Of a DNA stretch of 64,000 bases, positions 14,625-53,407 are shown in pieces. This stretch comes from an uncultured Anaerolinea sp. (GTDB lineage Bacteria; Chloroflexota; Anaerolineae; Anaerolineales; Anaerolineaceae), in assembly GCA_964564935.1 (NCBI GenBank), contig CAZMCF010000008.1:216-64215 (forward strand), written 5' to 3'. The position numbers and the translations under genes were made by a program. Every line of letters starts with the position of its first letter. Positions within the stretch are counted from its first letter, which is position 1. The notes beneath the pieces were generated by a model. That model had not been told where the DNA came from. It was given only the letters and a program-made list of their open reading frames with translations, and did not search any database.

Positions 14625-14636
14625 GGGAGGGTTTGG

Positions 14637-15179: not shown

Positions 15180-15191
15180 GAGGGAACGCCC

Positions 15192-15491: not shown

Positions 15492-15497
15492 GCCGCG

Positions 15498-17480: not shown

Positions 17481-17543
17481 TTTTATGTGTGATCCTGGCC
17501 CGGACCTCCTGGCGGGACTGAACTTTTACCCTGAGGACTGGTT

Positions 17544-19052: not shown

Positions 19053-19061
19053 GAGCGAAAG

Positions 19062-20507
19062 ATGACCCAGGCAGATTTATACTCCATTCTTCCCATCATC
19101 GTCCTGGTTGGCTGGGCGCTGCTTCTCCTGGTGGTGGATCTGTGGATCCTCAAAGAGGGCAAGGGGCTGACCGCCTTGCTCGCGGCGCTCGGGCTGGCAG
19201 TCTCGCTCGGGTTGACCCTGGCTCAGGGCGGGAGCAGCCAGCTGGCTTTCGGCGGGCTGGTCATGCTCGACGGATTCGCGGTGTATCTGAATGTGATCTT
19301 CCTGGTCAGCGGGCTGGTGGCGATCGCGCTCGGCTACGACTATCTCAAGCGGATGGGGCTGGAGCGCGGCGAATATTACGTGATGATGCTCTTCTCGATC
19401 AGCGGAATGATGATGATCACCCAGGCTTACAACCTGCTGGTGGTCTTCCTGGCGCTCGAAGTCCTTTCCATCCCGCTCTACATACTGGCCGGTTTTGCCC
19501 ACCCGCGTCAAGAATCGCAGGAGGCGGCGCTCAAATACTTCCTGCTCGGCGCGTTTTCCTCGGCCTTTGTTCTTTACGGAATTGCTTTGATTTTTGGAGC
19601 GACCGCCAGCATTGGCCTGGACGGCATCCTGGCGGCGCTGCAGGGGGGGACGGCGAATATTCCCCTGTTCACTGCCGGAGCGGCAATGATGCTGGTGGGC
19701 TTCGGCTTCAAGGTAGCGGCGGTGCCGTTCCACGAGTGGGCGCCGGACGTCTATCAGGGCTCGCCTTCGCCTGTTTCGGGGTTCATGTCCGTGGCGGTCA
19801 AGGCGGCCGGCTTCGCCGTGCTGCTGCGCATTTTCCTGACCGCTTTCCCCAGTCTGGCGGCGACCTTAACGCCGGCCTTGTGGGTCATTGCTGCTCTGAC
19901 CATGATCGTTGGCAACGTCCTGGCGGTGGTGCAGAGCAACATCAAGCGTCTCCTGGCCTATTCGAGCATCGCCCACGCCGGATACATGCTGATGGCTTTT
20001 GTCTCGTACGGCAGCGAAAAAGTTTCAGGCCAGTCTGTGTCGGCGATGATCTTTTACCTGATTGCTTACGGGTTGACCACCTTCGGCGCCTGGGCGGTGG
20101 TGGTTTCGCTGGAGCAGGCCGAGAGTAAAGGGTTGGAGCTGGAGGATTACGCCGGGCTGGGGCAGAAGTATCCCTGGCTGGGAGTGGCGATGATGGTGTT
20201 CATGCTCTCGCTGACCGGGGTGCCGATCACTCTGGGGTTCTGGGGTAAGTTTTACCTGTTCAAGACGGCTGTGGACGCAGGTTATGCCGGGCTGGCGCTG
20301 GTCGGTCTGCTGACCTCGCTGGTTTCGGCGTATTACTACCTGCGGGTGGTGGTGCTGATGTTCATGCGCGGCGGAGAGCCGCGGGTGCGGCGCGACGGGT
20401 GGTTGAGCCTGGTGGCGCTGGGGGCGGCGGCGGCGGTGGTGGCGCTGAGCGTGATACCCGGGCGTCTGCTGGAGGCGGCGGCGAACGCGGTGCTGCGCCT
20501 GCAATAA
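19062..20507 (+). CDS. nuoN: NADH-quinone oxidoreductase subunit N
   Basis: EAALKYF, FKVAAVPFHEWAPDVYQGSP, KRLLAYSSIAHAGY. Confidence 0.95.
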   Translation: MTQADLYSILPIIVLVGWALLLLVVDLWILKEGKGLTALLAALGLAVSLGLTLAQGGSSQLAFGGLVMLDGFAVYLNVIFLVSGLVAIALGYDYLKRMGLERGEYYVMMLFSISGMMMITQAYNLLVVFLALEVLSIPLYILAGFAHPRQESQEAALKYFLLGAFSSAFVLYGIALIFGATASIGLDGILAALQGGTANIPLFTAGAAMMLVGFGFKVAAVPFHEWAPDVYQGSPSPVSGFMSVAVKAAGFAVLLRIFLTAFPSLAATLTPALWVIAALTMIVGNVLAVVQSNIKRLLAYSSIAHAGYMLMAFVSYGSEKVSGQSVSAMIFYLIAYGLTTFGAWAVVVSLEQAESKGLELEDYAGLGQKYPWLGVAMMVFMLSLTGVPITLGFWGKFYLFKTAVDAGYAGLALVGLLTSLVSAYYYLRVVVLMFMRGGEPRVRRDGWLSLVALGAAAAVVALSVIPGRLLEAAANAVLRLQ

Positions 20508-20545
20508 GCAGTGCGCGTGGAAATTAGAGTATAATTTCAGCACCT

Positions 20546-20621
20546 GCCCCCGTAGCTCAACGGACAGAGTGACAGACTTCGAATCTGGAGGTTCAGGGTT
20601 CGAATCCCTGCGGGGGCGCCA
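20546..20621 (+). tRNA. tRNA-Arg(UCG)
   Basis: GCCCCCG/CGGGGGC acceptor stem, D arm GCTC/GAGT, anticodon loop CT-TCG-AA, GGTTCGAATCC T arm, encoded CCA; TATAAT at 20530-20535. Confidence 0.95.
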
Positions 20622-20842
20622 GATGTGGTGTGCCTTCCCATAATTACCCCCATATACGGGGGTAAATTGCTTTGGTTTCGCAGCCCCGGAAAAGCCGGGT
20701 GCAATTGGGTGCAATCGTTGTGTTTTGTTTCTGCACAAGAAAATGCCTTTTCCTCTCAAAAAATTTGCAATTCCCCGGGATGTCGTATATCATGGTAGCT
20801 GACGTTCATCCTCATGCTGACCTGGAGAGGTGTGGCGATTTG

Positions 20843-22186
20843 ATGAATGATCTTCTGTTGAAAAACGGCGATCGAGTTGCGCTCGAATACAAGGCCTTGA
20901 TTGAGCTGGTGGGAATCATCAAGGAGCGCCGCCCGCTCGGCGAAACCCTTGAGGCGAGTCTGGGGATTATTGTGCGGGTAATCCCGCAGGCAGATTTTGG
21001 GGCAGTGATGCTGTGGGATCAATCTTCGGGATTGTTCCGGCCATGGGCGTCGTACGGATGTGATGCCCAGATATTCAAAAGAATTGGCCTGCAGGCAGGC
21101 GAATCGATCACCGGGCGTGTGTACGATGAAAATAAGGCGCTCCTCCTCGAAACGCCAGAGGAAATTGCCAGGGCAATGGCGAATATGCGCCAGGCCAATC
21201 GGACTCTCTTCGCCAGGGCGATCAACCGCGAGCTCAAACCCCTCAGCTCGGTCGCAGCACCGATCGCCACCCGCCAGCAGAAGTTCGGCGTGCTGGCCCT
21301 GGAAACCTTCGACGGCCCGCAGCGCTTCTGCCAGGATGACCTGCCCTTCGTCCAAAAGCTGGCTGATCTGCTCGCTTTCGCCATCGAAACCTCACGCCTG
21401 GAAGCGCGCGCCGACGCGATCCACCAGTCGCGCGAGGCCGAACGGCTGCGCTCTGAGGCGCTGGCGACTCTCTCGCACGAGCTGCGCATGCCGCTGACCA
21501 CCATTAAAGGCTACACAACCATGCTGTTGATGGACGAAATCGCCTGGGATCCGACTAAAGCGAAAGAATACCTGCAATTGATCGACGAAGAATGCGACGG
21601 GATGCAGGCAATGATCAAGAGCATTCTGGATTCGACCATGATCGAGGCGCACCAGATCCCGATCGAGCCGCAGCCTTTGCGCTTGGGCATCATCGCCCGC
21701 GACGTGGCCGGCGAGGTGCAGCGGCGCACAGAATGCCACCGGCTGATCGTCGATTTCCCTCAGGATTTCCCGCTGGTTAATGTCGATCCGCGCTGGATCA
21801 AGCAGGTCTTCCGCAACATCCTCGATAACGCGGTCAAGTATTCGCCAAACGGCGGGTTGATCGTCATTCGGGGCGAGGCTCGCCAGACCGATGTTGTGGT
21901 CAGCACCGCCGACCAGGGTATTGGCATCTCTCCTGAGGATTTGATTCCGCTCTTTGAGAGATACTACCGGGTCCGCTCGCCGCACACAATGAATGTACCC
22001 GGCACCGGACTGGGGCTGCCTATTGCCCGCTCAATCGTCGAAATGCACGGAGGGCGGATTTGGGCGGACAGCAAGCTCGGGCAGGGAACCACTATTTACT
22101 TTTCCCTCCCGGTTTTCAAACCGGAGACAGGGCCGCTGACGCAGGGTAACCCGACCGGTACTCAAAAGACGGATATTGGAGAGTAG
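20843..22186 (+). CDS. Cytoplasmic GAF-domain sensor histidine kinase (start uncertain, 20780-20843)
   Basis: GAF region, LSHELRMPLT H-box, NILDNAVKYS, DQGIG, GTGLGL; no TM segments. Confidence 0.9.
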   Translation: MNDLLLKNGDRVALEYKALIELVGIIKERRPLGETLEASLGIIVRVIPQADFGAVMLWDQSSGLFRPWASYGCDAQIFKRIGLQAGESITGRVYDENKALLLETPEEIARAMANMRQANRTLFARAINRELKPLSSVAAPIATRQQKFGVLALETFDGPQRFCQDDLPFVQKLADLLAFAIETSRLEARADAIHQSREAERLRSEALATLSHELRMPLTTIKGYTTMLLMDEIAWDPTKAKEYLQLIDEECDGMQAMIKSILDSTMIEAHQIPIEPQPLRLGIIARDVAGEVQRRTECHRLIVDFPQDFPLVNVDPRWIKQVFRNILDNAVKYSPNGGLIVIRGEARQTDVVVSTADQGIGISPEDLIPLFERYYRVRSPHTMNVPGTGLGLPIARSIVEMHGGRIWADSKLGQGTTIYFSLPVFKPETGPLTQGNPTGTQKTDIGE

Positions 22187-22200
22187 CAACAGGTGTGCGT

Positions 22201-22905
22201 ATGAACAAACCACGCATTCTTGTGGTGGACGACGAACCGAAGGTGGTTCGGCTGCTGCGCGAAGCGCTGACCGCGACCGGATTCGAGGTGCTGGCTGCGA
22301 TGAACGGGGAGAACGCCATCGCCATGGCGGCTCTGGAACAACCGGATTTGGTCGTATTGGACATTATGCTGACCGGTGGGATGGACGGCTTCGAAGTCTG
22401 CCGGCGGCTGCGCGAATTTACCGATGTTCCCGTGTTGATGCTGACTGCCAAGGTGCGCGATATCGACAGGCTGCGCGGCTTCGAATGCGGCACCGACGAT
22501 TACATCACCAAGCCGTTTAATACCAAAGAACTGATCGCGCGGATTCGAGCAATCCTCAAGCGGGCTCAAAGCGGAGGTCAGGTGCCGCAGGAAGCCGCCC
22601 TGGAATGCGGCGAGCTGCGCATCGACCTGGCCAGGCGGAGGGTTTTCATCCGCGGGGAGGAAATCCATCTGACGCCGACAGAATATAACCTGCTGCACGA
22701 ATTGGCCCGCCATCCCAACCAGGTTATGCAGCACGAGCAGTTGCTTTCCGCCGTGTGGGGGGAAAAATACCGGCGCGACGAGGAGTATCTGCGCGCCTAT
22801 ATTTATACCCTGCGCAAGAAGATCGAAGCGGATCCGTCCAATCCGCGTTTGATCGTCCGCAGCCCGGGGTTTGGGTATATGCTCGTTGTGCCAGAAGAGG
22901 TCTGA
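22201..22905 (+). CDS. OmpR/PhoB-family (KdpE-like) response regulator
   Basis: ILVVDDE, LDIML, DYITKPF, LTPTEY, PGFGY. Confidence 0.93.
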   Translation: MNKPRILVVDDEPKVVRLLREALTATGFEVLAAMNGENAIAMAALEQPDLVVLDIMLTGGMDGFEVCRRLREFTDVPVLMLTAKVRDIDRLRGFECGTDDYITKPFNTKELIARIRAILKRAQSGGQVPQEAALECGELRIDLARRRVFIRGEEIHLTPTEYNLLHELARHPNQVMQHEQLLSAVWGEKYRRDEEYLRAYIYTLRKKIEADPSNPRLIVRSPGFGYMLVVPEEV

Positions 22906-23197: not shown

Positions 23198-23674
23198 ATG
23201 GAAATTTCGATCGAAGATATTCATGAAATCATCAAAGATGAAGCCCTGGGGGACGGCTCGCTCATCGCCGCGCTGGAGGCAATCCAGGAGCGATACCGCT
23301 ACCTGCCCCCCGAGGCGTTGGTGCTGGCGAGCGAGAGTTTTGGCGTCCCGCTTTCGCAGACTTATGCGGTGGCCACTTTTTATCACGCTTTCAGCCTGAA
23401 GCCTAAAGGGATCCACTGCCTGCACGTCTGCATGGGTACGGCCTGCCACGTGCGCGGCAGCCCGCAGGTGCTTGACCGGTTGGAGACCAAACTCGGCATC
23501 AAAGCCGGAGAAACCACCCGAGACCACCGCATCACCCTGGAAACGGTCAACTGTCTGGGGGCTTGCGCGCTTGGTCCCATTGTGGTTACTGACGGTGAAT
23601 ATTCTGGTGAGATGACGGTCGCCAAAACCGACACCCTGCTCAAGCGCCTGCTGCGTGAGGATGGGGGCGGCTGA
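23198..23674 (+). CDS. HydC/NuoE-like [2Fe-2S] subunit
   Basis: CMGTACHVRG and VNCLGACALGP; AGGAG RBS before ATG 23198. Confidence 0.9.
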   Translation: MEISIEDIHEIIKDEALGDGSLIAALEAIQERYRYLPPEALVLASESFGVPLSQTYAVATFYHAFSLKPKGIHCLHVCMGTACHVRGSPQVLDRLETKLGIKAGETTRDHRITLETVNCLGACALGPIVVTDGEYSGEMTVAKTDTLLKRLLREDGGG

Positions 23675-23675
23675 G

Positions 23676-25541
23676 ATGAGCCGGATGAAATCCCCCCAAG
23701 AGTTGGACGCCTTCCGCGAGCGGCTGCAGGCCGGCGTGGACCCCGGGCGCCCGGTTGTGGCAGTCTGCGGCGAGACGGGCTGCCGGGTCTATGGCAGCGA
23801 GCAAATCTTTGAGAATTTCCGCGAGGAGCTCGCCCGCCAGGAGGTCAGCGCCACCCTGCAAATGGAGGTCAAAGCCACCGGCTGCCCGGGCTACTGCGAA
23901 AAAGGTCCGGTGGTCATGCTCCGACCGCAGGGATTGCTCTACGGCCACGTCAAGCCGCAGGACGTGCCCGAGATCGTCCGCGAGACGATCCTGGGAGGCA
24001 GGGTCATCGATCGGCTTCTGGTGACCGATCCGTGCAGCAGCGAGAAAATCCCTTATGAAGCTGACGTGCCCTTTTATAAAAATCAATACCGTCTGATCCT
24101 GAATATGCACGGCACACTGGATCCGAGCCAGATCAACGAGTATATCGCCAGAGGAGGGTACGCCTCGCTGGAAAAAGCGCTCTTTCATATGCAGCCAGAA
24201 GAGATCATCCGCGCTATCAAGGACTCTGGACTGCGCGGGCGGGGCGGGGCGGGCTTTTCGACCGGCACGAAGTGGGGATTGTGCCGGTCGAACGTGCTCA
24301 AGGTTGGCGAAGGCTACCTGATCTGCAATGCCGATGAGGGCGATCCCGGCGCGTACATGGACCGCTCGATCATGGAAGGCAACCCCCACCGGGTGATCGA
24401 AGGAATGATCATCGGCGCTTACGCAATGGGAATCCATCACGGCTACGTCTACATCCGCAACGAATATCCTCAGGCGGTCAAGCACCTGCGTCTGGCTCTC
24501 AAGCAGGCCGAGGAATATGGACTGATCGGCAGGGATATTCTTGGCAGCGGCTTCGATTTCGATCTCCACGTGCGGCTGGGCAGCGGCGCTTTCGTCTGCG
24601 GCGAGGAAACCGCGCTGATGGCCTCGATTGAAGGCCGGATCGGCGAGCCGCGCCCGCGCCCGCCCTACCCGGCCGAATCCGGGCTGTGGGGAAAACCAAC
24701 CAATATCAACAATGTAAAAACCTGGGCAACCGTGCCGCTGATCATCGAGCGCGGGGCATCGTGGTTCGCTTCGATTGGCACCGAAAAAAGTAAAGGAACA
24801 ATGATCTTCTCGATCGTCGGCAAAATCAACAACACCGGGCTGGTCGAGGTGCCGATGGGCATCACCCTGCGTGATCTGATCTTCGACATCGGCGGCGGGA
24901 TTCGCAACGGCAAGCGCTTCAAGGCCGCTCAGATCGGCGGGCCGTCGGGCGGATGCATCCCTGCCGAGCACCTCGACGTGCAGATCGACTACGAATCGCT
25001 CACGTCGCTCGGCGCAATTGTCGGCTCGGGCGGGCTGGTGGTCGCAGACGAGGACACCTGCATGGTCGATTTCGCCCGCTACTTTATGTCCTTCACCCAG
25101 CAGGAATCGTGCGGCAAGTGCGTGCCCTGCCGGATTGGCACGCGGGCGATGCTGGCCACTCTCGAGCGCATTTGCGCCGGCGAGGGACAGCCCGGCGACG
25201 TCGAATATCTGCTGGAGCTGGGAACCGAAATCAAGCGCGGCTCGCTGTGCGGGCTGGGTCAGACTGCGCCCAACCCGGTGTTGAGCACCATACGCTATTT
25301 CCGCGAAGAGTACGACGCCCACATCCACGAGAAGCGCTGCCCGGCGCATGTCTGCAAGCCGTTGATCACTTACACCATCGACCCTGAGAAGTGCAACGGC
25401 TGCATGGTCTGCCTGCGCAACTGCACCAGCGGAGCGATCGAGGGGGCGCGTAAAGAGCCGCATATCATTCACGACGAATTATGTACGCGCTGCGGCGTTT
25501 GCTACAGCCTGTGCAAGTTCGACGCAATCACCGTGCGATAG
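23676..25541 (+). CDS. HydB/NuoF-like FMN/NAD(H) subunit with N-terminal [2Fe-2S] and C-terminal 2x[4Fe-4S] domains
   Basis: CGETGC/TGCPGYCEKGP, GLRGRGGAG, NADEGDPGAYMDR, GGPSGGC, ESCGKCVPC, HIHEKRCPAHVC, two CxxCxxCxxxC motifs. Confidence 0.92.
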   Translation: MSRMKSPQELDAFRERLQAGVDPGRPVVAVCGETGCRVYGSEQIFENFREELARQEVSATLQMEVKATGCPGYCEKGPVVMLRPQGLLYGHVKPQDVPEIVRETILGGRVIDRLLVTDPCSSEKIPYEADVPFYKNQYRLILNMHGTLDPSQINEYIARGGYASLEKALFHMQPEEIIRAIKDSGLRGRGGAGFSTGTKWGLCRSNVLKVGEGYLICNADEGDPGAYMDRSIMEGNPHRVIEGMIIGAYAMGIHHGYVYIRNEYPQAVKHLRLALKQAEEYGLIGRDILGSGFDFDLHVRLGSGAFVCGEETALMASIEGRIGEPRPRPPYPAESGLWGKPTNINNVKTWATVPLIIERGASWFASIGTEKSKGTMIFSIVGKINNTGLVEVPMGITLRDLIFDIGGGIRNGKRFKAAQIGGPSGGCIPAEHLDVQIDYESLTSLGAIVGSGGLVVADEDTCMVDFARYFMSFTQQESCGKCVPCRIGTRAMLATLERICAGEGQPGDVEYLLELGTEIKRGSLCGLGQTAPNPVLSTIRYFREEYDAHIHEKRCPAHVCKPLITYTIDPEKCNGCMVCLRNCTSGAIEGARKEPHIIHDELCTRCGVCYSLCKFDAITVR

Positions 25542-25550
25542 GGAGGCGGC

Positions 25551-26258
25551 ATGGTGCGATTAACCATTAACGATCAGCCTGTAGAAATGCCCGAGGGCCG
25601 CACTCTTCTCGAAGCCTGCCGCGAGATCGGGATTGAGGTGCCGACCCTGTGCTATCACCCCGCGCTTAAACCCTACGGCGCCTGCCGCCTGTGCATGGTG
25701 GAGGTCGCCAACCCGCCGCGCCCGCCAAGGCTGGTTGCCTCCTGCGTTTATCCCTGCGAGGAAGGCGCGGTTGTTCAGACCGAGAGCGAGGCTGCCCGCC
25801 GCAGCCGGCGGATGACCGCTGAGCTGCTCATGGCAACCGCCGGCGATTCTCCCGAAATCCGCAGCCTGGCGGAAAAGCTCGGCGTTACCCGGGTGCGCTT
25901 CCGTCTGCCGGAGGAGAACACCTGCGTGCTGTGCGGACTGTGCGTACGCGCCTGCGCCGAGATCGTAGGGGTCAGCGCAATCGGGATCATCGAGCGCGGC
26001 ATCTCCAAAAAGGTCAGCGCGCCGTTCCAGATCGCCTCTTCCCGCTGCATCGGCTGCGGAACCTGTGTCTTGATCTGTCCGACCGGCGCGTTCCAGTTCG
26101 AGGAGATTGCCGGCTTTCACAACATCGAGCCGACTTTGGAAGGTTACCGGCGCGGTTATTACCGGGTCAGCGGCGAGTTGGACTTCCGCCCGGATTTCGT
26201 TCATGACGTCTTCTCCCTGCTGAAATCTCAGTCCGGCTCAGAGGAGCAGCAGGAATAG
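25551..26258 (+). CDS. HydA-N-terminus/HoxU-like Fe-S subunit without a catalytic domain
   Basis: LCYHP..GACRLC..SC [2Fe-2S]; CVLCGLCVRAC and CIGCGTCVLICP; no H-cluster motifs. Confidence 0.85.
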   Translation: MVRLTINDQPVEMPEGRTLLEACREIGIEVPTLCYHPALKPYGACRLCMVEVANPPRPPRLVASCVYPCEEGAVVQTESEAARRSRRMTAELLMATAGDSPEIRSLAEKLGVTRVRFRLPEENTCVLCGLCVRACAEIVGVSAIGIIERGISKKVSAPFQIASSRCIGCGTCVLICPTGAFQFEEIAGFHNIEPTLEGYRRGYYRVSGELDFRPDFVHDVFSLLKSQSGSEEQQE

Positions 26259-26266
26259 GAGGGCTT

Positions 26267-28408
26267 ATGCCAGAAGCTGAACTCCCTGTTGAGCATGTGG
26301 TTCCGCGGATTGGGGTGTTCGTCTGCGGCTGCGGCGGGCAGATCAGCCGCACGCTGGACGTCGCCGCGCTCAGCCGCCAGGCCGGAGAATTAAACGGGGT
26401 CTGCTTTGCGGTTCATGACGCCTATCCGTGCAGCGCCGGCGGGCAGGAGCGCCTGCGCGCCGCCATCCAGGAACACCAGCTCGAGCGAGTGCTGATCGCT
26501 GGCTGCGCGCCGCGGCTGGTCGAAAAATTGTTTCAGCGGGCGGTTCAGCCGCTGCAGATTGACCCCGCCAATGTTTCGGTAGTGAACATTCGCGAGCTGG
26601 CAGCGGCCGGAGCTGACAGGGAACCCATGGCGGCTCAGGATATGGCGGCCAGTACCATCAGCATGGGCGTGGCCCGGTTGAGCGTGACCCGCCCTGTTCC
26701 CCCTCACTTTGGCAGGGTTACCAAAGCCGCTGTGGTGATCGGCAGCACGATCAGCGGGTTGACCGTTGCCCACTCAATCGCCGAGCGCGGTATTCCGGTG
26801 ACGCTGGTCGAGCCTGGCAGCGACATTCGCGGGACGACTTTTGACATGGATGATAACATGCGCCGCGCAGCCGAAACCCGCAAGCAGGCCGTGCTGAACC
26901 ACCCGAACATCCGGGTGATGCTCAACACCCGCCTGACCGCGGTCAACGGACACCCCGGCGAATACGTCATCTGGCTGCAGCAGGGCGGCCAGACCAGCTC
27001 ACTGACGGTTGGAACCATTGTGGTAGCCAACCTGGCCCATCCTAAAGATTTGGGCAGCCTGCAGTGGTTCGACCGCTCCAGGGTGAAAACCCAGCAGGAA
27101 TTTGGCGAGGAATTAGCGCGGGTCACCCGCGAAGGCCTTCCGCTGGGGCTGGATGAGGTGGTGTTCTTCCTGTGCGCTGAAGAGTCGCAGATGGAACACT
27201 GCTCGCGGGTCTGCTGCAACGCCGGCATCCGCCAGGCGCTGCAGGTCAAGCAGCTCAATCCGCATGCCAATGTGACCGTGCTGTTCCGCGACCTTTACCT
27301 GGGCGGGGTGGGTGGTTCGGGCGAAGCGGATTTGGTCAAAGCCCGTAAAGCCGGGGTTACTTTCTTCCGTTACCGTAAAGAGACCCCGCCGGTGATTGGC
27401 GACCGCACCGTGGATGTGCAGGATTCGCTGACCGACGTGCCGGTGCAGGTCCCTTACGAGAGGGTGGTGCTTTCCATGCCGCTGGTGCCGGTGGAGAATA
27501 CCGACATGCTCTCGGCGCTCCTGGACCTGCCCAAAGATGAATACGGCTTTCTGGCCGAGCCGCGCGTCCGCCTGCGCCCGGGACGTTACGCGGATCCGGG
27601 AATCTACGTACTGGGCAGCTCGCAGCTCCCGGCTGATACCGCCGAGGCGCTCTTCCAGGCCTATTTGACCGGAGCCCGGGCGCTGCGCTTTCTCTCCCAG
27701 GAGAGCATCCGGGTCGAGGCGCCGGTTGCTGAGATCGACGCCGGGCTGTGCACCGGCTGCGGCAACTGCCCGCAGGTTTGTCCGGTGGAGGCCATCCATC
27801 TCGAAAGGCGCGACGGCGTTCTCTCGCTTTCCGAGGTGGATGATATGCGTTGTATCGGCTGCGGTAACTGCGTGGTGGTCTGTCCGGTCAAGGCCATCAC
27901 CCTGCCGGGCTGGGATAACGTGGAGATCCCGGTACAGATCAGCGCCGCACTGGAAGCGGATCGCTTCGCGCCGGACGATCCGAAGGTGCTGATGCTGGCC
28001 TGCGAGTGGAGCGCCTACGGAGCCGCCGAGGCTGCCGGTCACCGCCGGCTGGCGCCGCCGCCAAATTGCCGCATCCTGCGGATGAACTGCTCGGCCCGCT
28101 TCGACCCTTACCATATCCTCTGGGCATTTTTAAACGGCGCGGATGGAGTACTGCTTGGCGCCTGCGCCCCGGGCGAGTGCCATTACGGCATGGGCAATCT
28201 CTACGCCCGCGAGCGAGTCGAGGTGCTGCGCAAAGAGTTAGCCCAGCACGGTGTCGATCCCCGCCGCCTGCGGCTGGAGTATTTTTCGGTGAACGATGGT
28301 CAAAAGGTGGTTGAAGTGCTGGAAGATTTCATTCGAGAATTGGAGCGCGACACGGTTGACCGAGGGCGCATGCCGGCTGGCAGGCGCATCCCGGTGGTGG
28401 AACGCTGA
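26267..28408 (+). CDS. HdrA-like protein fused to ferredoxin and MvhD domains
   Basis: RIGVFVCGCG, AGCAPR, VNIRE, CSRVCC, two ferredoxin motifs, MvhD-like CEW/RMNCSAR/GACAPGECHY. Confidence 0.85.
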   Translation: MPEAELPVEHVVPRIGVFVCGCGGQISRTLDVAALSRQAGELNGVCFAVHDAYPCSAGGQERLRAAIQEHQLERVLIAGCAPRLVEKLFQRAVQPLQIDPANVSVVNIRELAAAGADREPMAAQDMAASTISMGVARLSVTRPVPPHFGRVTKAAVVIGSTISGLTVAHSIAERGIPVTLVEPGSDIRGTTFDMDDNMRRAAETRKQAVLNHPNIRVMLNTRLTAVNGHPGEYVIWLQQGGQTSSLTVGTIVVANLAHPKDLGSLQWFDRSRVKTQQEFGEELARVTREGLPLGLDEVVFFLCAEESQMEHCSRVCCNAGIRQALQVKQLNPHANVTVLFRDLYLGGVGGSGEADLVKARKAGVTFFRYRKETPPVIGDRTVDVQDSLTDVPVQVPYERVVLSMPLVPVENTDMLSALLDLPKDEYGFLAEPRVRLRPGRYADPGIYVLGSSQLPADTAEALFQAYLTGARALRFLSQESIRVEAPVAEIDAGLCTGCGNCPQVCPVEAIHLERRDGVLSLSEVDDMRCIGCGNCVVVCPVKAITLPGWDNVEIPVQISAALEADRFAPDDPKVLMLACEWSAYGAAEAAGHRRLAPPPNCRILRMNCSARFDPYHILWAFLNGADGVLLGACAPGECHYGMGNLYARERVEVLRKELAQHGVDPRRLRLEYFSVNDGQKVVEVLEDFIRELERDTVDRGRMPAGRRIPVVER

Positions 28409-28494
28409 GAACCGGCGCCCCGACGCAGGCGCGTTGAGGGCAGGCTTGACACGCTGATAACCAAGAGGCAGGAAGATTTTTCAAGGAGGATCGT

Positions 28495-29661
28495 ATGATG
28501 AAACGCCTGGAAGCAGAAGTATGGGAGCTGGACAACTGCGCCGGGTGCGGGCTGTGCACCGCAGCCTGCTCGAAGCAGGTTCTGCTCTGGCAAGGGGACA
28601 GCCACCCGGTATTGGAGAAACGAACAAAAACCCTTGGTTTGTCGAAAACCACGCTGGATAGCTGCGCGTTTTGCCAGCGGTTTTGCGAAGAGGTTTGCCC
28701 GCGCCTGGAGCGCTGGCTTCCGCTGGAAGCGCGCACCATCCGCGCTGCCCGCGCCCGTGGACCGGTCTATTCCGGCTCGCCCAACGATGTCATCCGCGCC
28801 ATTCTCAGCGCCGGGCGCTCGGCCGGGCTGTTGGATGGGGTGGTGATGCTTGATCTCGACCCGTGGACTCTTCAGCCGGTGGCGCGGGTGGTTTCGACGG
28901 TTGAACAGATCGTTTCCACGGTCGGCCCGCAATACCTTTGGGCGCCGGTCTTCGACAAACTCAACGAGGCGGTTTTCGATTACGGCATGAACAGCATCGC
29001 CGTAGTCGGCACGCCGTGCACTGCACAGGCGATTCGCAAGCTAAAGAATTCGCCCAATCCGCGCCTGCAGCCCTATAAGGATGCAATCCGCTTGAGCGTG
29101 GCGGTCTTTTGCACCGGCATATACAGGCCGGAGCTGGTCGAGGAAGTGCTGGTCAAGCGGATGGGCGTTGGGCGCGAGCAGGTCCGTCGTTTGGAAATCT
29201 CACCGGATCGAGCCTGGATGCGGGCGGTTCTGTGGGACGGCAGCATGCGCACCGTGCCGCGCCAGCAGGCCGAGCATTACACACGCCCGGGCTGCGGCAA
29301 GTGCGACGATTTTCTGGGCGAATCGGCTGACCTGGCGGTTGGCAGCCTGGGAGCGCCGGCTGACGCTTCGACCCTGATTATCCGCACCCTGGCGGGAGAT
29401 GTGTTCGCCCGCAACGCGGTCCATATGGGCCTGCTGGAGACTACACCCGAGGTGGATGTCAAAGCGCTGGAGGCGGCTGCCAGCGAAAAGGACCGCCGCG
29501 AGCGGGCTCAGGCATTCAAGGACCTCGAAATCCTGATGCTCGACGGCTTAGCCGATCCGCAGAAGCGGGCCGAGGCGATCCAGCAGTTTGTGCGCCTGTA
29601 TCGCACGCCGGTTCAGACTGGCAGGGTCGACCAAAATCCGCGCGGCTGCACGGGCTGCTAA
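28495..29661 (+). CDS. FrhB/FdhB-family (F420 hydrogenase beta-like) Fe-S protein with N-terminal ferredoxin
   Basis: CAGCGLCTAAC, CAFCQRFCEEVCPR, VVGTPC, AVFC, RPGCGKCDDF..ADLAVGSLG. Confidence 0.85.
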   Translation: MMKRLEAEVWELDNCAGCGLCTAACSKQVLLWQGDSHPVLEKRTKTLGLSKTTLDSCAFCQRFCEEVCPRLERWLPLEARTIRAARARGPVYSGSPNDVIRAILSAGRSAGLLDGVVMLDLDPWTLQPVARVVSTVEQIVSTVGPQYLWAPVFDKLNEAVFDYGMNSIAVVGTPCTAQAIRKLKNSPNPRLQPYKDAIRLSVAVFCTGIYRPELVEEVLVKRMGVGREQVRRLEISPDRAWMRAVLWDGSMRTVPRQQAEHYTRPGCGKCDDFLGESADLAVGSLGAPADASTLIIRTLAGDVFARNAVHMGLLETTPEVDVKALEAAASEKDRRERAQAFKDLEILMLDGLADPQKRAEAIQQFVRLYRTPVQTGRVDQNPRGCTGC

Positions 29662-29691
29662 GGTCAGGGGATTATGGCTGGAGGAGCAACA

Positions 29692-30342
29692 ATGGATACA
29701 ATCAGCGCAAAATCGAAAACCTTACGGGAAGTCAATACGATTCTGCGGGAGAGCCTGAATGGGACGCCCATCAAGGTAAGCGGCGTAGAGCATATTCACG
29801 GGCTGGCCGCGGGTTTGAGCCACGGCGAGGTGGTTGTCGAGGGCAACGCCGGCGATTATCTCGGCGCGCTCAATGCAGGAGCGACAATCCGGGTGATCGG
29901 AGACGCCGGTAACTACGCCGCAGATAATATGAACAGCGGAGTGATCATCATCGACGGGAACGCAGGTTACGGCGCGGCTCAATACTGTTACGGCGGTACG
30001 GTGGTCATCCGCGGGAACGCTGGCGATTTCACCGCGACAATGAACAAGGGCGCCACGATCATCATTCAGGGTAACGTCGGCGACGAAGCCGGCACGTATA
30101 TGCTCAAGGGCGACCTGATCGTGGTTGGCGACGCGGGCAGAAACTTTGCCAATTACCTGATTCGCGGTTCGGTCTACATCGGCGGTAAGTACGAATCGCT
30201 GGGGCGCAACACCCGCCTGGTCGACCTGGATGATGAGGATATTGCCCGGCTGAAAGCCTATTTTGAGATGTATGCGATTCAGGCCGATCCGCTGCGTTTT
30301 CGTAAGATCGTAGCCGCTTCGGAAAAGCCCTTCTACCACTAA
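29692..30342 (+). CDS. Glutamate synthase GXGXG beta-helix subunit (GltB3/FwdC-like)
   Basis: Repeated GNAGD/GDAGN...M.SG..II.G beta-helix units; GGAGGAG RBS. Confidence 0.88.
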   Translation: MDTISAKSKTLREVNTILRESLNGTPIKVSGVEHIHGLAAGLSHGEVVVEGNAGDYLGALNAGATIRVIGDAGNYAADNMNSGVIIIDGNAGYGAAQYCYGGTVVIRGNAGDFTATMNKGATIIIQGNVGDEAGTYMLKGDLIVVGDAGRNFANYLIRGSVYIGGKYESLGRNTRLVDLDDEDIARLKAYFEMYAIQADPLRFRKIVAASEKPFYH

Positions 30343-30354
30343 AAGGAGGATGGG

Positions 30355-31932
30355 ATGCCAATCGTTGGAGCATTTTGTGTCAGCGTAAACCGGGAAATCT
30401 GCATCAATGCCGAAATGCCCGGCAAGTGCGCCACCTGCGCCGAGGTCTGCCCGCATGGCGTTTATGCGCTCGACCTGGCCAGCGGCGAGATGAATGTGGT
30501 CAACTACAACGCCTGCGTCGGCTGCCGGATTTGCGCCGAGTTCTGTCCGGTCAACGCCATCCGGATCAACCCGGCCGAGCCGGAGTATTACACCCGCTAC
30601 CCCTGGACCTTTTCGGCAATCGAGGAAGTCCACTATAAAGCCCAGACAGGCGACTACCTGCTGCGCGGGTTTGGAACCGCCGGCCAGACGCCAAACTTCG
30701 ACATGATCACCGTCGTCCCCAGCCAGATCGCCAGTCCCGCTCCGCGCGACAAGTACCGCGAAGAGTGCGACATGGAGGTGGTGATCGGCGAAGATACCTG
30801 CAAGAAGCCGATGGTGCTGAAGAAGCCCTTCGTCTGGCCGGCCATGTCTTTTGGCGCGCTCAGCAAGGAGGCCAAGCTTGCCCTGGCGATCGGCGCTGCC
30901 ATGACCGGCATCGCCGCCAACACGGGCGAGGGAGGGCTGCTGCCGGAGGAAGTGTACCTCTCTCACGGCTTTACTGACCCGGAGGAGCAAAACAAGCGCT
31001 GGGAGCCAGGAGGTTACCTGGTCATCCAGTGGTCGACCGGGCGCTGGGGCGTCTCGGCTGACTACCTGCGGGCTGGCGACGCGGTAGAAGTCAAGATTGG
31101 GCAGGGCGCGAAGCCGGGCATGGGCGGGCACCTGCTGGGCGCCAAGGTCACCGACGAGGTCGCCCGCGTGCGCGGCATCCCTAAGGGCTCGGATGCGCTC
31201 AGCCCTTGCCGCTATTATGATGTGCAGACCCTGGATGACATTAAGCACATGGTCGAATTCATCCGCGATGTGACCGATTATCAGTTCCCGATCCTGTTCA
31301 AGCTCGGGCCCTCGCGTCCGTACCAGGATGTGGCAGCCTGCATCGAAGCTGGCGCGGACGCGATCAGTATCGACGGTATGGTGGGCGGGACGGGCTGCTC
31401 TCCGGACATCGTCACCCAGGGCACCGGAATCCCGACCATCGCCTGCATTCCTCCCGCGGTCCAGGCGTTGAAGGATTACGGCGTGTACAAGAAGGTGAAG
31501 TTAATCGCCCTGGGCGGCATCCGCAACGGGCTGGATGCCTTCAAGGCTCTGGCGCTCGGCGCTGACGCGGTCGGCTTCGGCTCGGCGGCTGAGGTGGCGC
31601 TTGGCTGCCGGGTGTGCTACGCCTGTCACAAGGGCAACTGCCCCTACGGAATCACCAGTCAGAAACCGGAGCTTTCCGCCCGGCTCGATCCAGTAGAGGG
31701 CGGGCAGAGGCTGGCGAATTTCATCAAAGCCTGTAATGAAGAAATCAAAATCCTGACGATGCTTTCCGGGCACAACTCGATCCGGGAGCTCTCGACGGAG
31801 GATTTACGCGCGCTGGACCTTAACACGGCCGCTCTGACGGGCCTGAAGCTGGCAGGCTACGACCGCCCGCTGCCGTGGTGGGAGAACGGCAGTGCTCCTG
31901 CCTGGAAAGGAGGCAATGGCCACAAAGGCTGA
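30355..31932 (+). CDS. Archaeal-type glutamate synthase FMN subunit (GltB2) with N-terminal ferredoxin
   Basis: AMSFGALS, NTGEGG, STGRWGV, EVKIGQGAKPGMGGHL, GGIRNG, CRVCYACHKGNCPYGI. Confidence 0.92.
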   Translation: MPIVGAFCVSVNREICINAEMPGKCATCAEVCPHGVYALDLASGEMNVVNYNACVGCRICAEFCPVNAIRINPAEPEYYTRYPWTFSAIEEVHYKAQTGDYLLRGFGTAGQTPNFDMITVVPSQIASPAPRDKYREECDMEVVIGEDTCKKPMVLKKPFVWPAMSFGALSKEAKLALAIGAAMTGIAANTGEGGLLPEEVYLSHGFTDPEEQNKRWEPGGYLVIQWSTGRWGVSADYLRAGDAVEVKIGQGAKPGMGGHLLGAKVTDEVARVRGIPKGSDALSPCRYYDVQTLDDIKHMVEFIRDVTDYQFPILFKLGPSRPYQDVAACIEAGADAISIDGMVGGTGCSPDIVTQGTGIPTIACIPPAVQALKDYGVYKKVKLIALGGIRNGLDAFKALALGADAVGFGSAAEVALGCRVCYACHKGNCPYGITSQKPELSARLDPVEGGQRLANFIKACNEEIKILTMLSGHNSIRELSTEDLRALDLNTAALTGLKLAGYDRPLPWWENGSAPAWKGGNGHKG

Positions 31933-32045: not shown

Positions 32046-34589
32046 ATGACATTCTCTCAAGATCAATCCCTTGCCGACATCCTCGTCAATGAGGCGGTCT
32101 ACGGCTGCGCCTGCCAAAAATTCTCTGGAGATGTGGAGCAGACCCGGCAGGCGCTGCGCCAGGGGCGCTGCGATATTTGTGAAATCTTTCGGGATCATCT
32201 CGTCCTTCAGATTGGGCAATACCTGGGTAAAGTCGATCCAACGATCAAGGCGATTGTAAAGTACGAGCCGGAGCTGGCTCCGCTGCTGCCGCAATCCCAG
32301 CGCCTGTCTCCCGAGTCCCGCAGGCGGGGGATTAACCTGATCGCCTGGGTAGGCCGCAAGAGCGCCGCGCTCAGCGCGCTGGGCAGCAGTTTGGAGACGA
32401 CAGTGGCCGAATCGCGGCGGAAACTGGGATGCCAGAACGCCCAGCCAGCCTGCTTCAACCTGGACATTCAGATCGTCGACGATCGCGAGGTGAGCGAATC
32501 GCGCGGGGCGGGGTTGATGGTCAAACAGCCGTTCTTGCGCTCGATCCAGATCTGGAAACGGCCGGAACCACTCGAAGAGCCCTCCCCGCCGGCCGTGTCT
32601 GAGATCGACGGAATCCTTACCGCACTCGACCTCGAGCTCGCCCCTGAGAACGTCCTCTTCGAGCAGGCTTATGCCATCGAGAAGGTCCCGCCGGAGGAGC
32701 GCCATATCCTCGAAGCGCGGCTGCGTGAACTAAAGGTCATCCTGATCCGCCGGTTGATCAGCGACCAGCTTGCGTATATCAACATCGCCAAAGATCTGCT
32801 GACCATCGGCGACCTGGAAGAGATCCACCGCCGGCGGATCGGCAACGGCAAGATCGGAGGCAAGGCCGCCGGTTTGATCCTGGCTGCGCGCATCCTCCAG
32901 GAGAAGGCGGATGAGGAGCTGAAGGCGGCTATTCGCATTCCGCCGTCAGTCTTCCTGGGATCGGATTTGATCTATATCTTCATGGCGATGAACGGCCTCA
33001 TGCACTGGAACAACCAGAAGTACAAGCCGGAAGAACAGATCTATCGCGATTATCCGCTGATCTGCGAGCAGTTCGCGGCCGGGAGTTTTCCGCCAGAGGT
33101 CGTCGATCAATTACGCGCCCGTCTGGAGGAGTTCTCCGGTCAACCGCTGATCGTCCGATCTTCCAGCCAGCTGGAGGATAACTTCGGCACCTCCTTTGCC
33201 GGCAAATATCAAAGCTTTTTCTACCCGAATCAGGGAACGATAGACGAGAACATGGCGGCGCTGACCCGGGCAATCGCTCTGACCTTTGCCAGCACTCTCA
33301 ACCCGGACGCGCTTCTCTACCGCCGCAGCAAAGGCCTGCAGGATTACGACGAGCGCATGGCGGTACTGATTCAACCGGTTCAGGGCGAGGTGTTCGACCG
33401 CTACTACTACCCCTTCGCCGCAGGCGTGGCATTCAGCCGCAACCTGTATCGCTGGGCGCCGCAAATCCGCCGGGAGGACGGGTTTGCCCGGATCGTCTGG
33501 GGACTGGGGACTCACGCCGTCGAGCGCGGCGGCAACGATTATCCGCGCCTGGTCGCGTTAAGCCACCCCACCCTTCAGCCGGATGACGAGCCGCGGGCAA
33601 TCCGCTACTATTCGCAGAAATTCGCTGACGTGATCGACCTGCACGATAATGCCTTCAAGACCGTTCAGATAGAGGATCTGCTCGACTTGCGCTACCCGCT
33701 GTTGCGCTTTCTGGTCCAGATAGAGGCGGACGGTTACTTCACCACCCCCCGCGGACGGGTGATGGCCGACGACCTGCCAGGCGCGGCGGTCACCTTCGAT
33801 GAGTTTCTGCGGCGGACTAATTTTCCCTCGCAGCTTTCGGCCATGCTCAAGCTGCTGGAACAGTACTACCGGGTGCCGGTTGACGTCGAGTTTACTGCCC
33901 GGGTCGAGGAGACCGGCGGCCTGAAACCGCGGGTTGCCATTACCCTGCTGCAATGCCGCCCGCAGTCGCAGCTGCAGCTGGTGGTGCCGAGCGTGGTCCC
34001 ATCGGATTTGAGCGAGGAAAGCATCATTTTCTCGTGCCAGTTCATGGTGCCGGTGGGCTACCTCGATAACGTCCGCTACGTAATTTATGTGCCTCCAAAG
34101 GCTTATTTTGGGCTGACCTCGGAGCGGCAGCGTAATGAGGTCTCGCGGATCGTTTCGCAATTGAACGCAGTCCTGCCCGCTAAGGGATTTATCTGCGTGG
34201 GGCCGGGACGCTGGGGGACGACCAATCTGGATCTGGGGGTTTTTGTCAACTACGCGGATGTGTTCAATGCCGGCGCGCTGGTCGAGATGGCCGGCGGCGA
34301 GACAGGTCTGGCGCCGGAGCCCTCCTTTGGCACTCATTTTTTCCAGGATTTAATGGAGGCTCAGATTTATCCGGTGGCGCTGCCGCTCGATGATCCCAAG
34401 ACAACCTTCAACCGCAGCTTTTTCGAAGACACCCCGAACCGCCTGAGCGATTTTCTTGCCGTGAATGAAGAGCTGATGGAGGCGGTTAAACTGATCGCCG
34501 TGGCAGACTACCGCCCGGGGCACCACCTTGAATTGTATCTGAACGGCGACCAGAACCGGGCGATTTCGTTCCTTACAGCTGACCGTTAG
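32046..34589 (+). CDS. PEP/pyruvate-binding (PPDK_N ATP-grasp) dikinase-like protein with Cys-rich N-terminal extension
   Basis: IGGKAAG, VRSSSQLEDNFGTSFAGKY, MAVLIQ, VWGLG, DVEF, LLQCRP, PSFGTHFFQ; ATG 32046 after GAGGAGG. Confidence 0.85.
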   Translation: MTFSQDQSLADILVNEAVYGCACQKFSGDVEQTRQALRQGRCDICEIFRDHLVLQIGQYLGKVDPTIKAIVKYEPELAPLLPQSQRLSPESRRRGINLIAWVGRKSAALSALGSSLETTVAESRRKLGCQNAQPACFNLDIQIVDDREVSESRGAGLMVKQPFLRSIQIWKRPEPLEEPSPPAVSEIDGILTALDLELAPENVLFEQAYAIEKVPPEERHILEARLRELKVILIRRLISDQLAYINIAKDLLTIGDLEEIHRRRIGNGKIGGKAAGLILAARILQEKADEELKAAIRIPPSVFLGSDLIYIFMAMNGLMHWNNQKYKPEEQIYRDYPLICEQFAAGSFPPEVVDQLRARLEEFSGQPLIVRSSSQLEDNFGTSFAGKYQSFFYPNQGTIDENMAALTRAIALTFASTLNPDALLYRRSKGLQDYDERMAVLIQPVQGEVFDRYYYPFAAGVAFSRNLYRWAPQIRREDGFARIVWGLGTHAVERGGNDYPRLVALSHPTLQPDDEPRAIRYYSQKFADVIDLHDNAFKTVQIEDLLDLRYPLLRFLVQIEADGYFTTPRGRVMADDLPGAAVTFDEFLRRTNFPSQLSAMLKLLEQYYRVPVDVEFTARVEETGGLKPRVAITLLQCRPQSQLQLVVPSVVPSDLSEESIIFSCQFMVPVGYLDNVRYVIYVPPKAYFGLTSERQRNEVSRIVSQLNAVLPAKGFICVGPGRWGTTNLDLGVFVNYADVFNAGALVEMAGGETGLAPEPSFGTHFFQDLMEAQIYPVALPLDDPKTTFNRSFFEDTPNRLSDFLAVNEELMEAVKLIAVADYRPGHHLELYLNGDQNRAISFLTADR

Positions 34590-52120: not shown

Positions 52121-53407
52121 CTAAATCCAGCCGCGCAATTCCATCGCCTTGACTACGCGCGCAATCGCCACCATATACGCCGCGTCGCGCATGTACACTT
52201 TTTCCTTGACCGACATCTCCAGCACAGCCGCGAAGGCCTCGGTCATCTTGGTGTCCAGCTTGGAGAGCACTTCCTCTTTCGTCCAGTAGAAGTTCATGTC
52301 GTTCTGCACGCTCTCGAAGTACGAGACGGTCACGCCGCCTGCGTTGCAGAGGAAGTCGGGGATGATGAAGATGCCGCGCTGCATGATCACTTCGTCGGCC
52401 TCGGGGGTGGTGGGGCCGTTGGCGCCCTCGGCGATCAGCTTAACCCGCGGGCTGACCCGCTTGACCGTCTCGGCGTTGATCTGGCCTTCCAGCGCCGCCG
52501 GGATGAGCACGTCCACATCTTTACTGATCCAGGCTTCGCCGTCTTCGATGACGTAACCGGCTGCGCGGGCTTTATCCTTGTTAATTGAGCCGTACTGGTC
52601 GGTGATGCTCATCAGGAAGCGCGGATCGAGGCCGTCTTCTTTGCTGACCGTGTAGGAGGTGCGGTCGTCGCGGTCCCAGTAAGAGACGCAGACTACTTTG
52701 CCGCCGAGCATCTCAGTGAAGCCGATGGCGGCGTACTGGGCGACGTTGCCAAAGCCCTGAATCGCCGCCTTGCACTGCCCGGGGTCCATCTTGAGGTGTT
52801 TCATCGCTTCGCGCACGGTGTAGATCACACCGTAGCCGGTCGCCTCGGTGCGGCCCTGCGAGCCGCCGCCGCCGAGGGGTTTGCCGGTGATCACGCCCGG
52901 GGTGTACTGGCCGGAGAGTTTGGAGTACTCGTCCATCATCCAGCCCATCATCTGCGGGGTGGTGCCGACGTCCGGAGCGGGCACGTCCTGGCGGGGGCCG
53001 ATGTTCTTCCACATCTGGCCGATGTAGCCGCGCACCAGGCGCTCCTTCTCGCTGGTGGAGAGGGTGGCGGGATCGACAATCACGCCGCCCTTGCCGCCGC
53101 CAAGCGGGATATCGACCACGGCGCATTTCCAGGTCATCCAGGTGGCCAGGGCGCGGACGGTGTCGATCGTCTCCGCCGGGTGGAAGCGAATGCCGCCCTT
53201 GTTCGGACCGCGGGCGTCGTTGTGCTGCACGCGGAAGCCCTGGAAAACGCGGATCGTGCCGTCGTCCATGCGGACCGGGATGCGGAAGTGGTATTCGCGC
53301 AGCGGCCAGCGCAGGATTTCGCGCACCTGCGGATCGAGCTTGAGAAGCTCGGCGACATGATCGAACTGGCGCTGAGCCATTTCAAACGCATTGGTGGTTT
53401 CTGCCAT
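52121..53407 (-). CDS. gdhA: Glutamate dehydrogenase (Glu/Leu/Phe/Val family)
   Basis: GPNKGGIRF, MTWKC, GGGKGG, DVPAPD, GFGNVA, EGANGP, NAGGV. Confidence 0.93.
   Translation of the reverse strand: MAETTNAFEMAQRQFDHVAELLKLDPQVREILRWPLREYHFRIPVRMDDGTIRVFQGFRVQHNDARGPNKGGIRFHPAETIDTVRALATWMTWKCAVVDIPLGGGKGGVIVDPATLSTSEKERLVRGYIGQMWKNIGPRQDVPAPDVGTTPQMMGWMMDEYSKLSGQYTPGVITGKPLGGGGSQGRTEATGYGVIYTVREAMKHLKMDPGQCKAAIQGFGNVAQYAAIGFTEMLGGKVVCVSYWDRDDRTSYTVSKEDGLDPRFLMSITDQYGSINKDKARAAGYVIEDGEAWISKDVDVLIPAALEGQINAETVKRVSPRVKLIAEGANGPTTPEADEVIMQRGIFIIPDFLCNAGGVTVSYFESVQNDMNFYWTKEEVLSKLDTKMTEAFAAVLEMSVKEKVYMRDAAYMVAIARVVKAMELRGWI

What the first reader, a model, noticed from the sequence alone, without database searches (positions are those of the whole stretch)
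23198..31932. Putative electron-bifurcating, glutaminase-less glutamate synthase/oxidase complex (HydCBA'-HdrA/MvhD-FrhB-GltB3-GltB2)
Seen: seven tightly spaced co-oriented genes encoding HydC, bifurcating-type HydB, a HydA-like Fe-S subunit with no H-cluster, an HdrA-ferredoxin-MvhD fusion, an FrhB-like protein, a GXGXG subunit and a ferredoxin-GltB2 with intact FMN/2-oxoglutarate motifs. No hydrogenase, formate dehydrogenase, HdrBC, GltD or GltB1 (Ntn glutamine amidotransferase) gene lies in the window. Known: methanogen split GOGAT clusters carry GltB1/2/3 with an FrhB-like subunit, and HydBC modules are coupled to varied catalytic heads. Inference: GltB2 is the catalytic head of a new HydABC-class enzyme. 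It could use free ammonia (or another amine) for reductive amination, or oxidatively deaminate glutamate, coupled to NAD(H) and ferredoxin. I know of no characterised enzyme with this composition.
Basis: partly seen in the sequence, partly recalled or inferred. Interest (0 to 1): 0.9.

Follow-up and report, generated by a model that had tools for sequence, protein, structure and literature searches.

The report
Ferredoxin-wired glutamate synthase lacking glutaminase
A conserved gene cluster of Anaerolineae bacteria places the glutamate-making half of glutamate synthase, without its glutamine-splitting half, beside an NADH/ferredoxin electron-bifurcation-type module, and likely encodes an undescribed enzyme that would fix free ammonium into glutamate using ferredoxin instead of ATP.

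Summary
Seven co-oriented genes encode BfuC, BfuB, BfuA, HdrA-MvhD, an FrhB-like protein, GltB3 and Fd-GltB2. The 94%-complete genome shows no GltB1/MgsA, HdrB, CofH or second glutamate synthase. The FrhB-GltB3-GltB2 core recurs in 46 of 48 Anaerolineae loci (including cultured Longilinea arvoryzae); none of the 48 holds GltB1 and 16 hold a glutamate dehydrogenase gene.

- BfuB keeps every bifurcation signature, but HdrA has lost K409/E356, its glycine motif and its inserted ferredoxin, and FrhB has lost its flavin/F420 loops; both look like Fe-S wires.
- GltB2 is not from methanogen F420-GOGAT (AU p 1e-41); it forms its own clade with archaeal GltB1-less loci.
- The input module varies: of 37 loci, 30 have plain BfuB, 5 a BfuB::GltD fusion, 1 GltD alone, 1 none.

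Best reading: NADH plus reduced ferredoxin confurcate to drive 2-oxoglutarate + NH4+ to glutamate; oxidative deamination to NAD+ and ferredoxin is uphill. No activity or assembly is shown. No paper found; this scan has already noted the same operon in other genomes.

The parts
20672..22186 (+). GAF histidine kinase, likely regulator (conserved upstream in many loci; true start probably a later ATG)
22195..22905 (+). OmpR-type response regulator, conserved upstream; gdh sits between kinase and regulator in one lineage
23198..23674 (+). BfuC/HydC, [2Fe-2S] C1 (C78, C83, C119, C123 conserved)
23655..25541 (+). BfuB/HydB: FMN/NADH site, B1-B5 ligands intact, AxM, F313 and GGPSG bifurcating-type motifs
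25551..26258 (+). Minimal BfuA: [2Fe-2S] plus two [4Fe-4S]; no His-ligated cluster motif, no catalytic domain
26267..28408 (+). HdrA-MvhD fusion with decayed FAD site (GSTISG; E356 to G280; K409 to R322), no inserted ferredoxin; N-terminal, C-terminal ferredoxin and MvhD cysteines conserved; inferred Fe-S wire
28495..29661 (+). FpoF/Fsr-N-type FrhB-like protein: three [4Fe-4S] ligand sets kept, flavin/F420 loops replaced, extra C-terminal CxxC; inferred adaptor
29674..30342 (+). GltB3-like GXGXG beta-helix
30355..31932 (+). Ferredoxin-GltB2: 2x[4Fe-4S], FMN barrel with synthase-site residues, CxxCxxCxxxxC cluster motif; inferred catalytic subunit
32046..34589 (+). Fusion of a ~170-aa nucleotidyltransferase-like domain (a free gene beside gltB2 in deeper loci) to a PPDK_N-like domain; likely accessory or regulatory part
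52121..53407 (-). The genome's only glutamate dehydrogenase gene; not adjacent here, but adjacent to the cluster in 16 of 48 related loci

Best explanation
The seven genes form a conserved cluster that likely encodes one soluble enzyme, predicted to take electrons from NADH and reduced ferredoxin at BfuBC and pass them along iron-sulfur wires to the FMN of GltB2, which would join free ammonium to 2-oxoglutarate and reduce the imine to glutamate. Net inferred reaction: NADH + 2 Fd(red) + 2 (2-oxoglutarate + NH4+) gives NAD+ + 2 Fd(ox) + 2 glutamate. Shown: gene content, order, cofactor ligands, absence of a glutaminase gene, decay of the HdrA and FrhB flavin motifs, gdh linkage. Inferred: assembly into one complex; the path BfuA, HdrA C-terminal ferredoxin, MvhD, FrhB clusters, GltB2 clusters, FMN; ammonium as amine; confurcation; the assimilatory direction. 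The roughly -390 mV confurcated electrons would match the roughly -380 mV that the NADPH-type GltD input gives in sister loci.
For: Core in 46 of 48 loci, GltB1 in 0 of 48, plain BfuB in 30 of 37 loci with enough upstream DNA. Every full-length stand-alone GltB1/MgsA found in carrier genomes has its own Glt partner gene beside it. The cluster gene is the only PF01645 match in 22 of 30 genomes. BfuB meets all Bfu sequence criteria. Synthase-site residues are kept. gdh is adjacent in at least five different arrangements. GltD variants carry GxGxxA plus YRR, a recalled NADPH signature. Glutamate formation is -12 to -35 kJ/mol from a -390 mV donor against -13 to +9 from NADH (standard potential and concentrations assumed). 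Ferredoxin-linked 2-oxoacid oxidoreductases are present. Ammonia-dependent amination is a reported side activity of GOGAT (PMC6237917 passage).
Against: No activity, expression or assembly data. Seven of 37 loci lack a plain BfuB, so ferredoxin coupling is not essential to the family. The genome also has two glutamine synthetases and a GDH, so another assimilation route exists. The nearest characterised relative by identity is MgsC (about 45%), which handles methylamine, and loop 4 reads SPCR, like some MgsC-type and unlike the SPxPH of GltB1-coupled synthases. Free-ammonia affinity of GltS is poor (recalled). An archaeal sister locus lies beside alanine dehydrogenase and keeps an intact-looking HdrA, which fits amino-acid breakdown. 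The cluster was not found in the genome's own family or order among those searched (0 of 3 and 0 of 12).
Confidence: 0.4

Rival explanations
1. Catabolic or reversible flavin glutamate dehydrogenase: one complex, but it oxidises glutamate to 2-oxoglutarate + NH4+ with NAD(P)+, with ferredoxin coupling loose or, in relatives with intact HdrA, through HdrA confurcation.
For: gdh, aminotransferase and alanine dehydrogenase neighbours; deeper bacterial loci and archaeal L191 keep GxGxxG, E356, K409 and the FAD-side cluster cysteines; the couple is near NAD equilibrium.
Against: In this strain the HdrA site is gone, and strict BfuBC bifurcation from glutamate is uphill. NAD-only chemistry would duplicate GDH with seven genes, while B2-B5 ligands stay conserved.
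Confidence: 0.2
2. Same wiring, different amine or imine: an N-alkylglutamate, opine-like or cyclic imino-acid oxidoreductase, which would explain why no glutaminase is needed.
For: GltB2 and GltB3 fall on the MgsC/MgsB side of both trees; loop 4 differs from GOGAT.
Against: No gmaS, mgd or amine genes were seen in the loci; gdh linkage; the clade is separate from MgsC.
Confidence: 0.15
3. Redox shunt with GDH: the complex makes glutamate and GDH breaks it again, so the pair moves electrons from ferredoxin to NAD(P)+ (for example into complex I).
For: gdh placed inside the kinase-regulator-cluster block in one lineage; complex I with NuoF and NuoG in the window.
Against: Dissipative with NAD; an NADP version needs extreme metabolite ratios (inference); gdh is 20 kb away in this genome.
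Confidence: 0.1
4. Two or more separate enzymes under one regulator (a BfuABC-HdrA module with other partners, and a ferredoxin-fed GltB2-GltB3-FrhB).
For: Input module is swapped or absent in 7 of 37 loci; the largest gap (86 nt) precedes frhB.
Against: BfuA has no catalytic domain and no other head is encoded; order is fixed; no HdrB in the genome.
Confidence: 0.08
5. Ordinary glutamine-dependent GOGAT completed by a glutaminase encoded elsewhere or lost from the assembly.
For: Genome is 94% complete; two glutamine synthetases; relatives on the same side of the tree (MgsC; Ignicoccus-type, PMC2614490 passage) do use a separate Ntn subunit.
Against: Only AsnB and GlmS types here; none in 48 loci; no orphan GltB1 in 30 + 32 carrier genomes searched (partly overlapping sets).
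Confidence: 0.05

Closest known systems
Bfu family (HydABC-type), e.g. A. mobile NiFe-HydABCSL (7T2R); Schut et al. 2022, PMC9304861
   Same: Complete BfuBC core with B1-B5 and C1 ligands; BfuA as a pure Fe-S link to extra subunits.
   Different: Third-substrate head is a glutamate-synthase FMN barrel; 'glutam' occurs 0 times in that paper's main text and 'glutamate' 0 times in its one held supplement. BfuA has no A4/A5 branch.
Class II benzoyl-CoA reductase BamB-I (Bam-Bfu)
   Same: Bfu module plus an HdrA-type module in one cluster.
   Different: No tungstopterin subunit; HdrA flavin site decayed here, so no double bifurcation in this strain.
[quoted passage not shown]
   Same: FrhB-like + GltB2 + GltB3; these are the nearest FrhB relatives outside the clade (29-35%).
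   Different: They carry GltB1, usually beside glnA, and intact flavin loops; their GltB2 is a different clade.
N-methylglutamate synthase MgsABC
   Same: Split GXGXG and FMN subunits; MgsC-like proteins are about 45% identical.
   Different: Has the Ntn subunit MgsA and gmaS/mgd context; no N-terminal ferredoxin, FrhB, HdrA or Bfu.
FdhAB-MvhD-HdrABC (7BKB) and ElpABC-HdrABC (8RVU)
   Same: FrhB-family protein together with MvhD and HdrA.
   Different: No HdrBC; HdrA lacks the inserted ferredoxin and K409/E356; ferredoxin domain of the FrhB-like protein is N-terminal.
NAD(P)-dependent glutamate dehydrogenase
   Same: Same net carbon-nitrogen reaction is inferred.
   Different: Unrelated fold; hydride direct from NAD(P)H, no ferredoxin.

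Membership tests
Bfu (HydABC-type) | BfuB with FMN, SLBB, B1 and C-terminal B3/B4, N-terminal B5; BfuC adjacent | tested here: met
Bfu (HydABC-type) | Five B2 ligands (A. mobile C438, C476, H525, C531, C536) | tested here: met
   C469, C507, H556, C562, C567
Bfu (HydABC-type) | AxM, Phe and GGPSG motifs of bifurcating beta subunits | tested here: met
   A233-Y-M235, F313 (= A. mobile F282), G428-G432
Bfu (HydABC-type) | BfuA with at least a [2Fe-2S] and a ferredoxin domain | tested here: met
Bfu (HydABC-type) | Strictly coupled NAD(H) and ferredoxin turnover with a third substrate | not testable with these tools
   needs purified enzyme
Bifurcating HdrA | K409 and E356 at the FAD; GxGxxG | tested here: not met
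   R322, G280, GSTISG in the window; kept in deeper loci such as L027, L125-L134
Bifurcating HdrA | Inserted ferredoxin domain and HdrBC partners | tested here: not met
Glutamate synthase (GOGAT) | FMN synthase domain with 2-OG site and Fe-S motif; GXGXG domain | tested here: met
Glutamate synthase (GOGAT) | Ntn glutaminase domain or subunit | tested here: not met
F420-dependent glutamate synthase (FGltS) | FrhB subunit with flavin/F420 loops and a host that makes F420 | tested here: not met
   xGG.VT, AGSRY and FCTE replaced by PNDVI, VGPQY and FCTG; no CofH match; single PF01933 match of 480 aa, read as YvcK-type
F420-dependent glutamate synthase (FGltS) | GltB2 in the methanogen GltB1-coupled clade | tested here: not met
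   AU test p 9.8e-42
N-methylglutamate synthase MgsABC | MgsA subunit, gmaS/mgd context, GltB2 inside the MgsC clade | tested here: not met
N-methylglutamate synthase MgsABC | Use of methylamine | not testable with these tools
   needs assay

The most novel reading that the evidence does not exclude
A new class of Bfu enzyme with a carbon-nitrogen head: a strictly confurcating, glutaminase-free glutamate synthase that spends reduced ferredoxin instead of ATP or NADPH to fix ammonium, built by turning two former flavoenzymes (HdrA, FrhB) into flavin-less wires, with sister forms that swap in an NADPH input or use an intact HdrA to run the reaction catabolically.
Probability: 0.35. Interest if true: 0.88.

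Novelty: new variant of a known kind. Interest (0 to 1): 0.7.

Why it matters
No Bfu enzyme with an amino-acid substrate is listed in the family survey I read, and stand-alone GltB2 genes without a glutaminase have no assigned function in the papers found. If right, this is a third route of ammonium assimilation beside GDH and GS-GOGAT, in a class of bacteria common in digesters and sediments (about 9% of sampled Anaerolineae genomes). It is directly testable in cultured Longilinea arvoryzae KOME-1. The natural series (HdrA intact or decayed; Bfu, BfuB::GltD or GltD input) is also a ready comparative system for how bifurcation sites are gained and lost.

Tried and rejected
No RNA holder was listed. 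The AlphaFold model of the FrhB-like protein was low confidence (pLDDT 66); it confirmed only the FrhB/FpoF fold, not the flavin site. The fold search of the 172-aa domain gave no match at E <= 0.001; top rows were MNT-type nucleotidyltransferases, agreeing with the Atlas lead. Promoter and terminator scans were at chance level. The careful tree did not finish; quick trees were used. The idea that intact HdrA goes with the GltD input was not borne out: intact motifs occur with both inputs. A regex miss of B2 in L135-L140 and L186 was an artefact; ligands are present, with Thr at the C476 position. L021 is titled an archaeon but matches Anaerolineales loci in order and identity, so it was not taken as an archaeal occurrence. 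F420 use, HdrA bifurcation in this strain and methanogen-GOGAT descent were rejected as above.
Full report
Observation. The genome (94% complete) has one glutamate-synthase-family gene, no GATase_2 match, three Ntn amidotransferases that are AsnB and two GlmS types, no CCG protein, no CofH, two glutamine synthetases, three ferredoxin-linked 2-oxoacid oxidoreductase matches and one GDH, in this window.

Conservation. A genome scan with GltB2 gave 29 loci at 68-87% identity, titled Chloroflexota/Anaerolineae apart from one contig titled as an archaeon that matches Anaerolineales loci, and including Longilinea arvoryzae. In an even sample of 401 class-level genomes, the FrhB-like protein matched at 47% or more in 37 including this genome, across more than ten families, but not in the genome's own family (0 of 3) or the other family of its order (0 of 12). 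I fetched 20 of these regions. Dropping L134 as a duplicate of L028, 48 loci were counted: core FrhB-GltB3-GltB2 in 46 (the other two start at a contig end), GltB1/MgsA in 0, gdh in 16 (11 of 26 with long flanks). Of 37 with 5.5 kb or more upstream, 30 have plain BfuB, 5 BfuB::GltD, 1 GltD with BfuA, 1 (L141) only ferredoxin/MvhD pieces. Kin are not independent, but gdh appears between kinase and regulator, before bfuC, after gltB2, after the small accessory gene, and convergent downstream.

No orphan glutaminase. A GltB1/MgsA profile over 30 carrier genomes found one full-length stand-alone hit, G412, beside its own MgsB/MgsC; G409 and G419 have GltB1::GltB3 fusions and G401, G425 and G426 large GltB frames. 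Over 32 further, partly overlapping carriers at E <= 1e-24, 7 matched: G530 (with its own GltB2), G802 (with its own GXGXG gene; contig ends), G469 and G693 (fusions with own GltB2), and three of GlmS/PurF size. That cut-off would miss weak matches. The cluster gene is the only PF01645 match in 22 of 30 genomes. Most are incomplete MAGs.

Cofactor sites. BfuB aligns end to end with A. mobile HydB and keeps the five B2 ligands, B3/B4, B5 and the AxM, Phe and GGPSG motifs (criteria from PMC9304861 section 6, PMC7311640 section 17, PMC8880783 passages). BfuA has three clusters and no His-ligated motif. HdrA lacks the inserted ferredoxin and the FPTxDCxxC segment; in the window E356 and K409 (PMC12054007 passage) map to G280 and R322 and the glycine motif reads GSTISG. 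Across 61 aligned HdrA rows the site is intact-looking in one deeper group (L027, L125-L134), and the FAD-side cluster cysteines are lost in at least two lineages (L018 group, L135 group), while the C-terminal ferredoxin and MvhD cysteines are invariant in the 30-row alignment. The FrhB-like protein keeps all cluster ligands but replaces the loops that methanogen FGltS subunits share with solved FrhB proteins; loss of flavin is inferred from this, not shown. GltB2 keeps the synthase-site residues (roles recalled).

Origin. In quick trees of 62 and 36 rows, the Anaerolineae GltB2 proteins and three sister sequences form one clade (99-100), on the side of MgsC-like, Methanobacteriaceae 620-aa and GXGXG-fused proteins, apart from GltB1-coupled methanogen and Dehalococcoidia-type synthases; holding them with the methanogen group is rejected (p-AU 9.8e-42). 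GltB3 agrees. The nearest outside FrhB relatives are in glnA-gltB1-gltB2-gltB3-frhB loci, one of Methanospirillum type. Sister loci L190 and L191 look archaeal by neighbours and also lack GltB1 in the DNA held. The system is therefore a mosaic, not a methanogen GOGAT with a new input.

Mechanism. With NAD -280, NADP -380 and ferredoxin -500 mV (PMC9304861 Table 1) and a recalled standard potential of -125 to -160 mV, the glutamate couple sits at -210 to -330 mV over assumed concentrations. Confurcated electrons at about -390 mV drive amination by 12-35 kJ/mol; the reverse is uphill by as much. With HdrA disabled, BfuBC is the only coupling site, so amination is the favoured direction. The GltD variants would supply a similar potential from NADPH. 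GltS reduces 2-iminoglutarate at FMN (PMC8097209 section 6.1), and ammonia use is a reported side activity (PMC6237917 passage). Against this: amino-acid dehydrogenase neighbours and intact HdrA in relatives fit breakdown; MgsC kinship allows another amine; the genome has other assimilation enzymes. No binding prediction could be obtained.

Literature. Searches of the open-access library found no description of this cluster; subscription papers are not covered. Seen: PMC9304861 (abstract, sections 4-6 in part, one supplement searched; its supplementary figures were not visible as such and lists unassigned clades 1-17, which may include this BfuB); PMC8097209 (passages, section 6.1 part 1); PMC7311640 (passages, section 17); passages only of PMC12054007, PMC3448663, PMC9012536, PMC6237917, PMC8880783, PMC11406978, PMC5736913, PMC9241837 and PMC2614490. 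PMC9012536 mentions ANME FrhB10 clusters with glutamate synthase subunits, which I could not compare. The names QmoB-like and YvcK-type, and the NADPH signature, are recalled. Earlier notes of this scan describe the same operon in other Anaerolineae and archaeal Hdr-linked forms; I read them after forming my view and count them as leads, not support.

Verdict. Real, conserved and apparently undescribed: a Bfu-family member by every sequence test, not a GOGAT, FGltS or Mgs member by their defining features, and most likely a ferredoxin/NADH-driven, ammonium-using glutamate synthase. Interest 0.7; new variant of a known kind.

Noticed in passing
window 32046-34589; free gene e.g. L027:11595-12110: A ~170-aa cysteine-bearing nucleotidyltransferase-like protein of no Pfam family travels with the cluster (free, duplicated, or fused to a PPDK_N-like domain); catalytic motifs look degenerate, possibly a regulator.
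   Followed up: partly
L027:2072-5251, L126, L128, L131, L132, L133, L155, L159, L187: BfuB with B3/B4 replaced by a GltD-like FAD domain of NADPH-type signature; a similar fusion is described for Hydrogenedentota hydrogenases (PMC11406978).
   Followed up: partly
L190 and L191: Archaeal-looking sister loci without GltB1: one with an HdrB-like CCG gene before frhB, one with alanine dehydrogenase, GltD-like, a short HdrA and HdrA-MvhD.
   Followed up: partly
L076, L086, L228, L231: A further glutamate-synthase type with a ~900-aa GltB1::GltB3 fusion; in L076 it follows MTHFR genes and two Glu_synthase-domain genes.
   Followed up: no
window 25551-26258 and 28495-29661: Deeper BfuA proteins carry a C-terminal His..CxxC that the window lineage lost; the FrhB-like protein keeps a terminal CxxC. 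Possible extra metal site.
   Followed up: no
window 6404-20621: Complex I gene run with its own NuoF and NuoG, then tRNA-Arg (20546-20621) directly before the kinase gene; with the patchy distribution this may mark an insertion site.
   Followed up: partly
G000 C23:20174-21730: NiFe hydrogenase large subunit with one in-frame TGA, possibly selenocysteine.
   Followed up: no
L067, L071: Split GOGAT genes interleaved with hisH and hisF, beside amtB.
   Followed up: no
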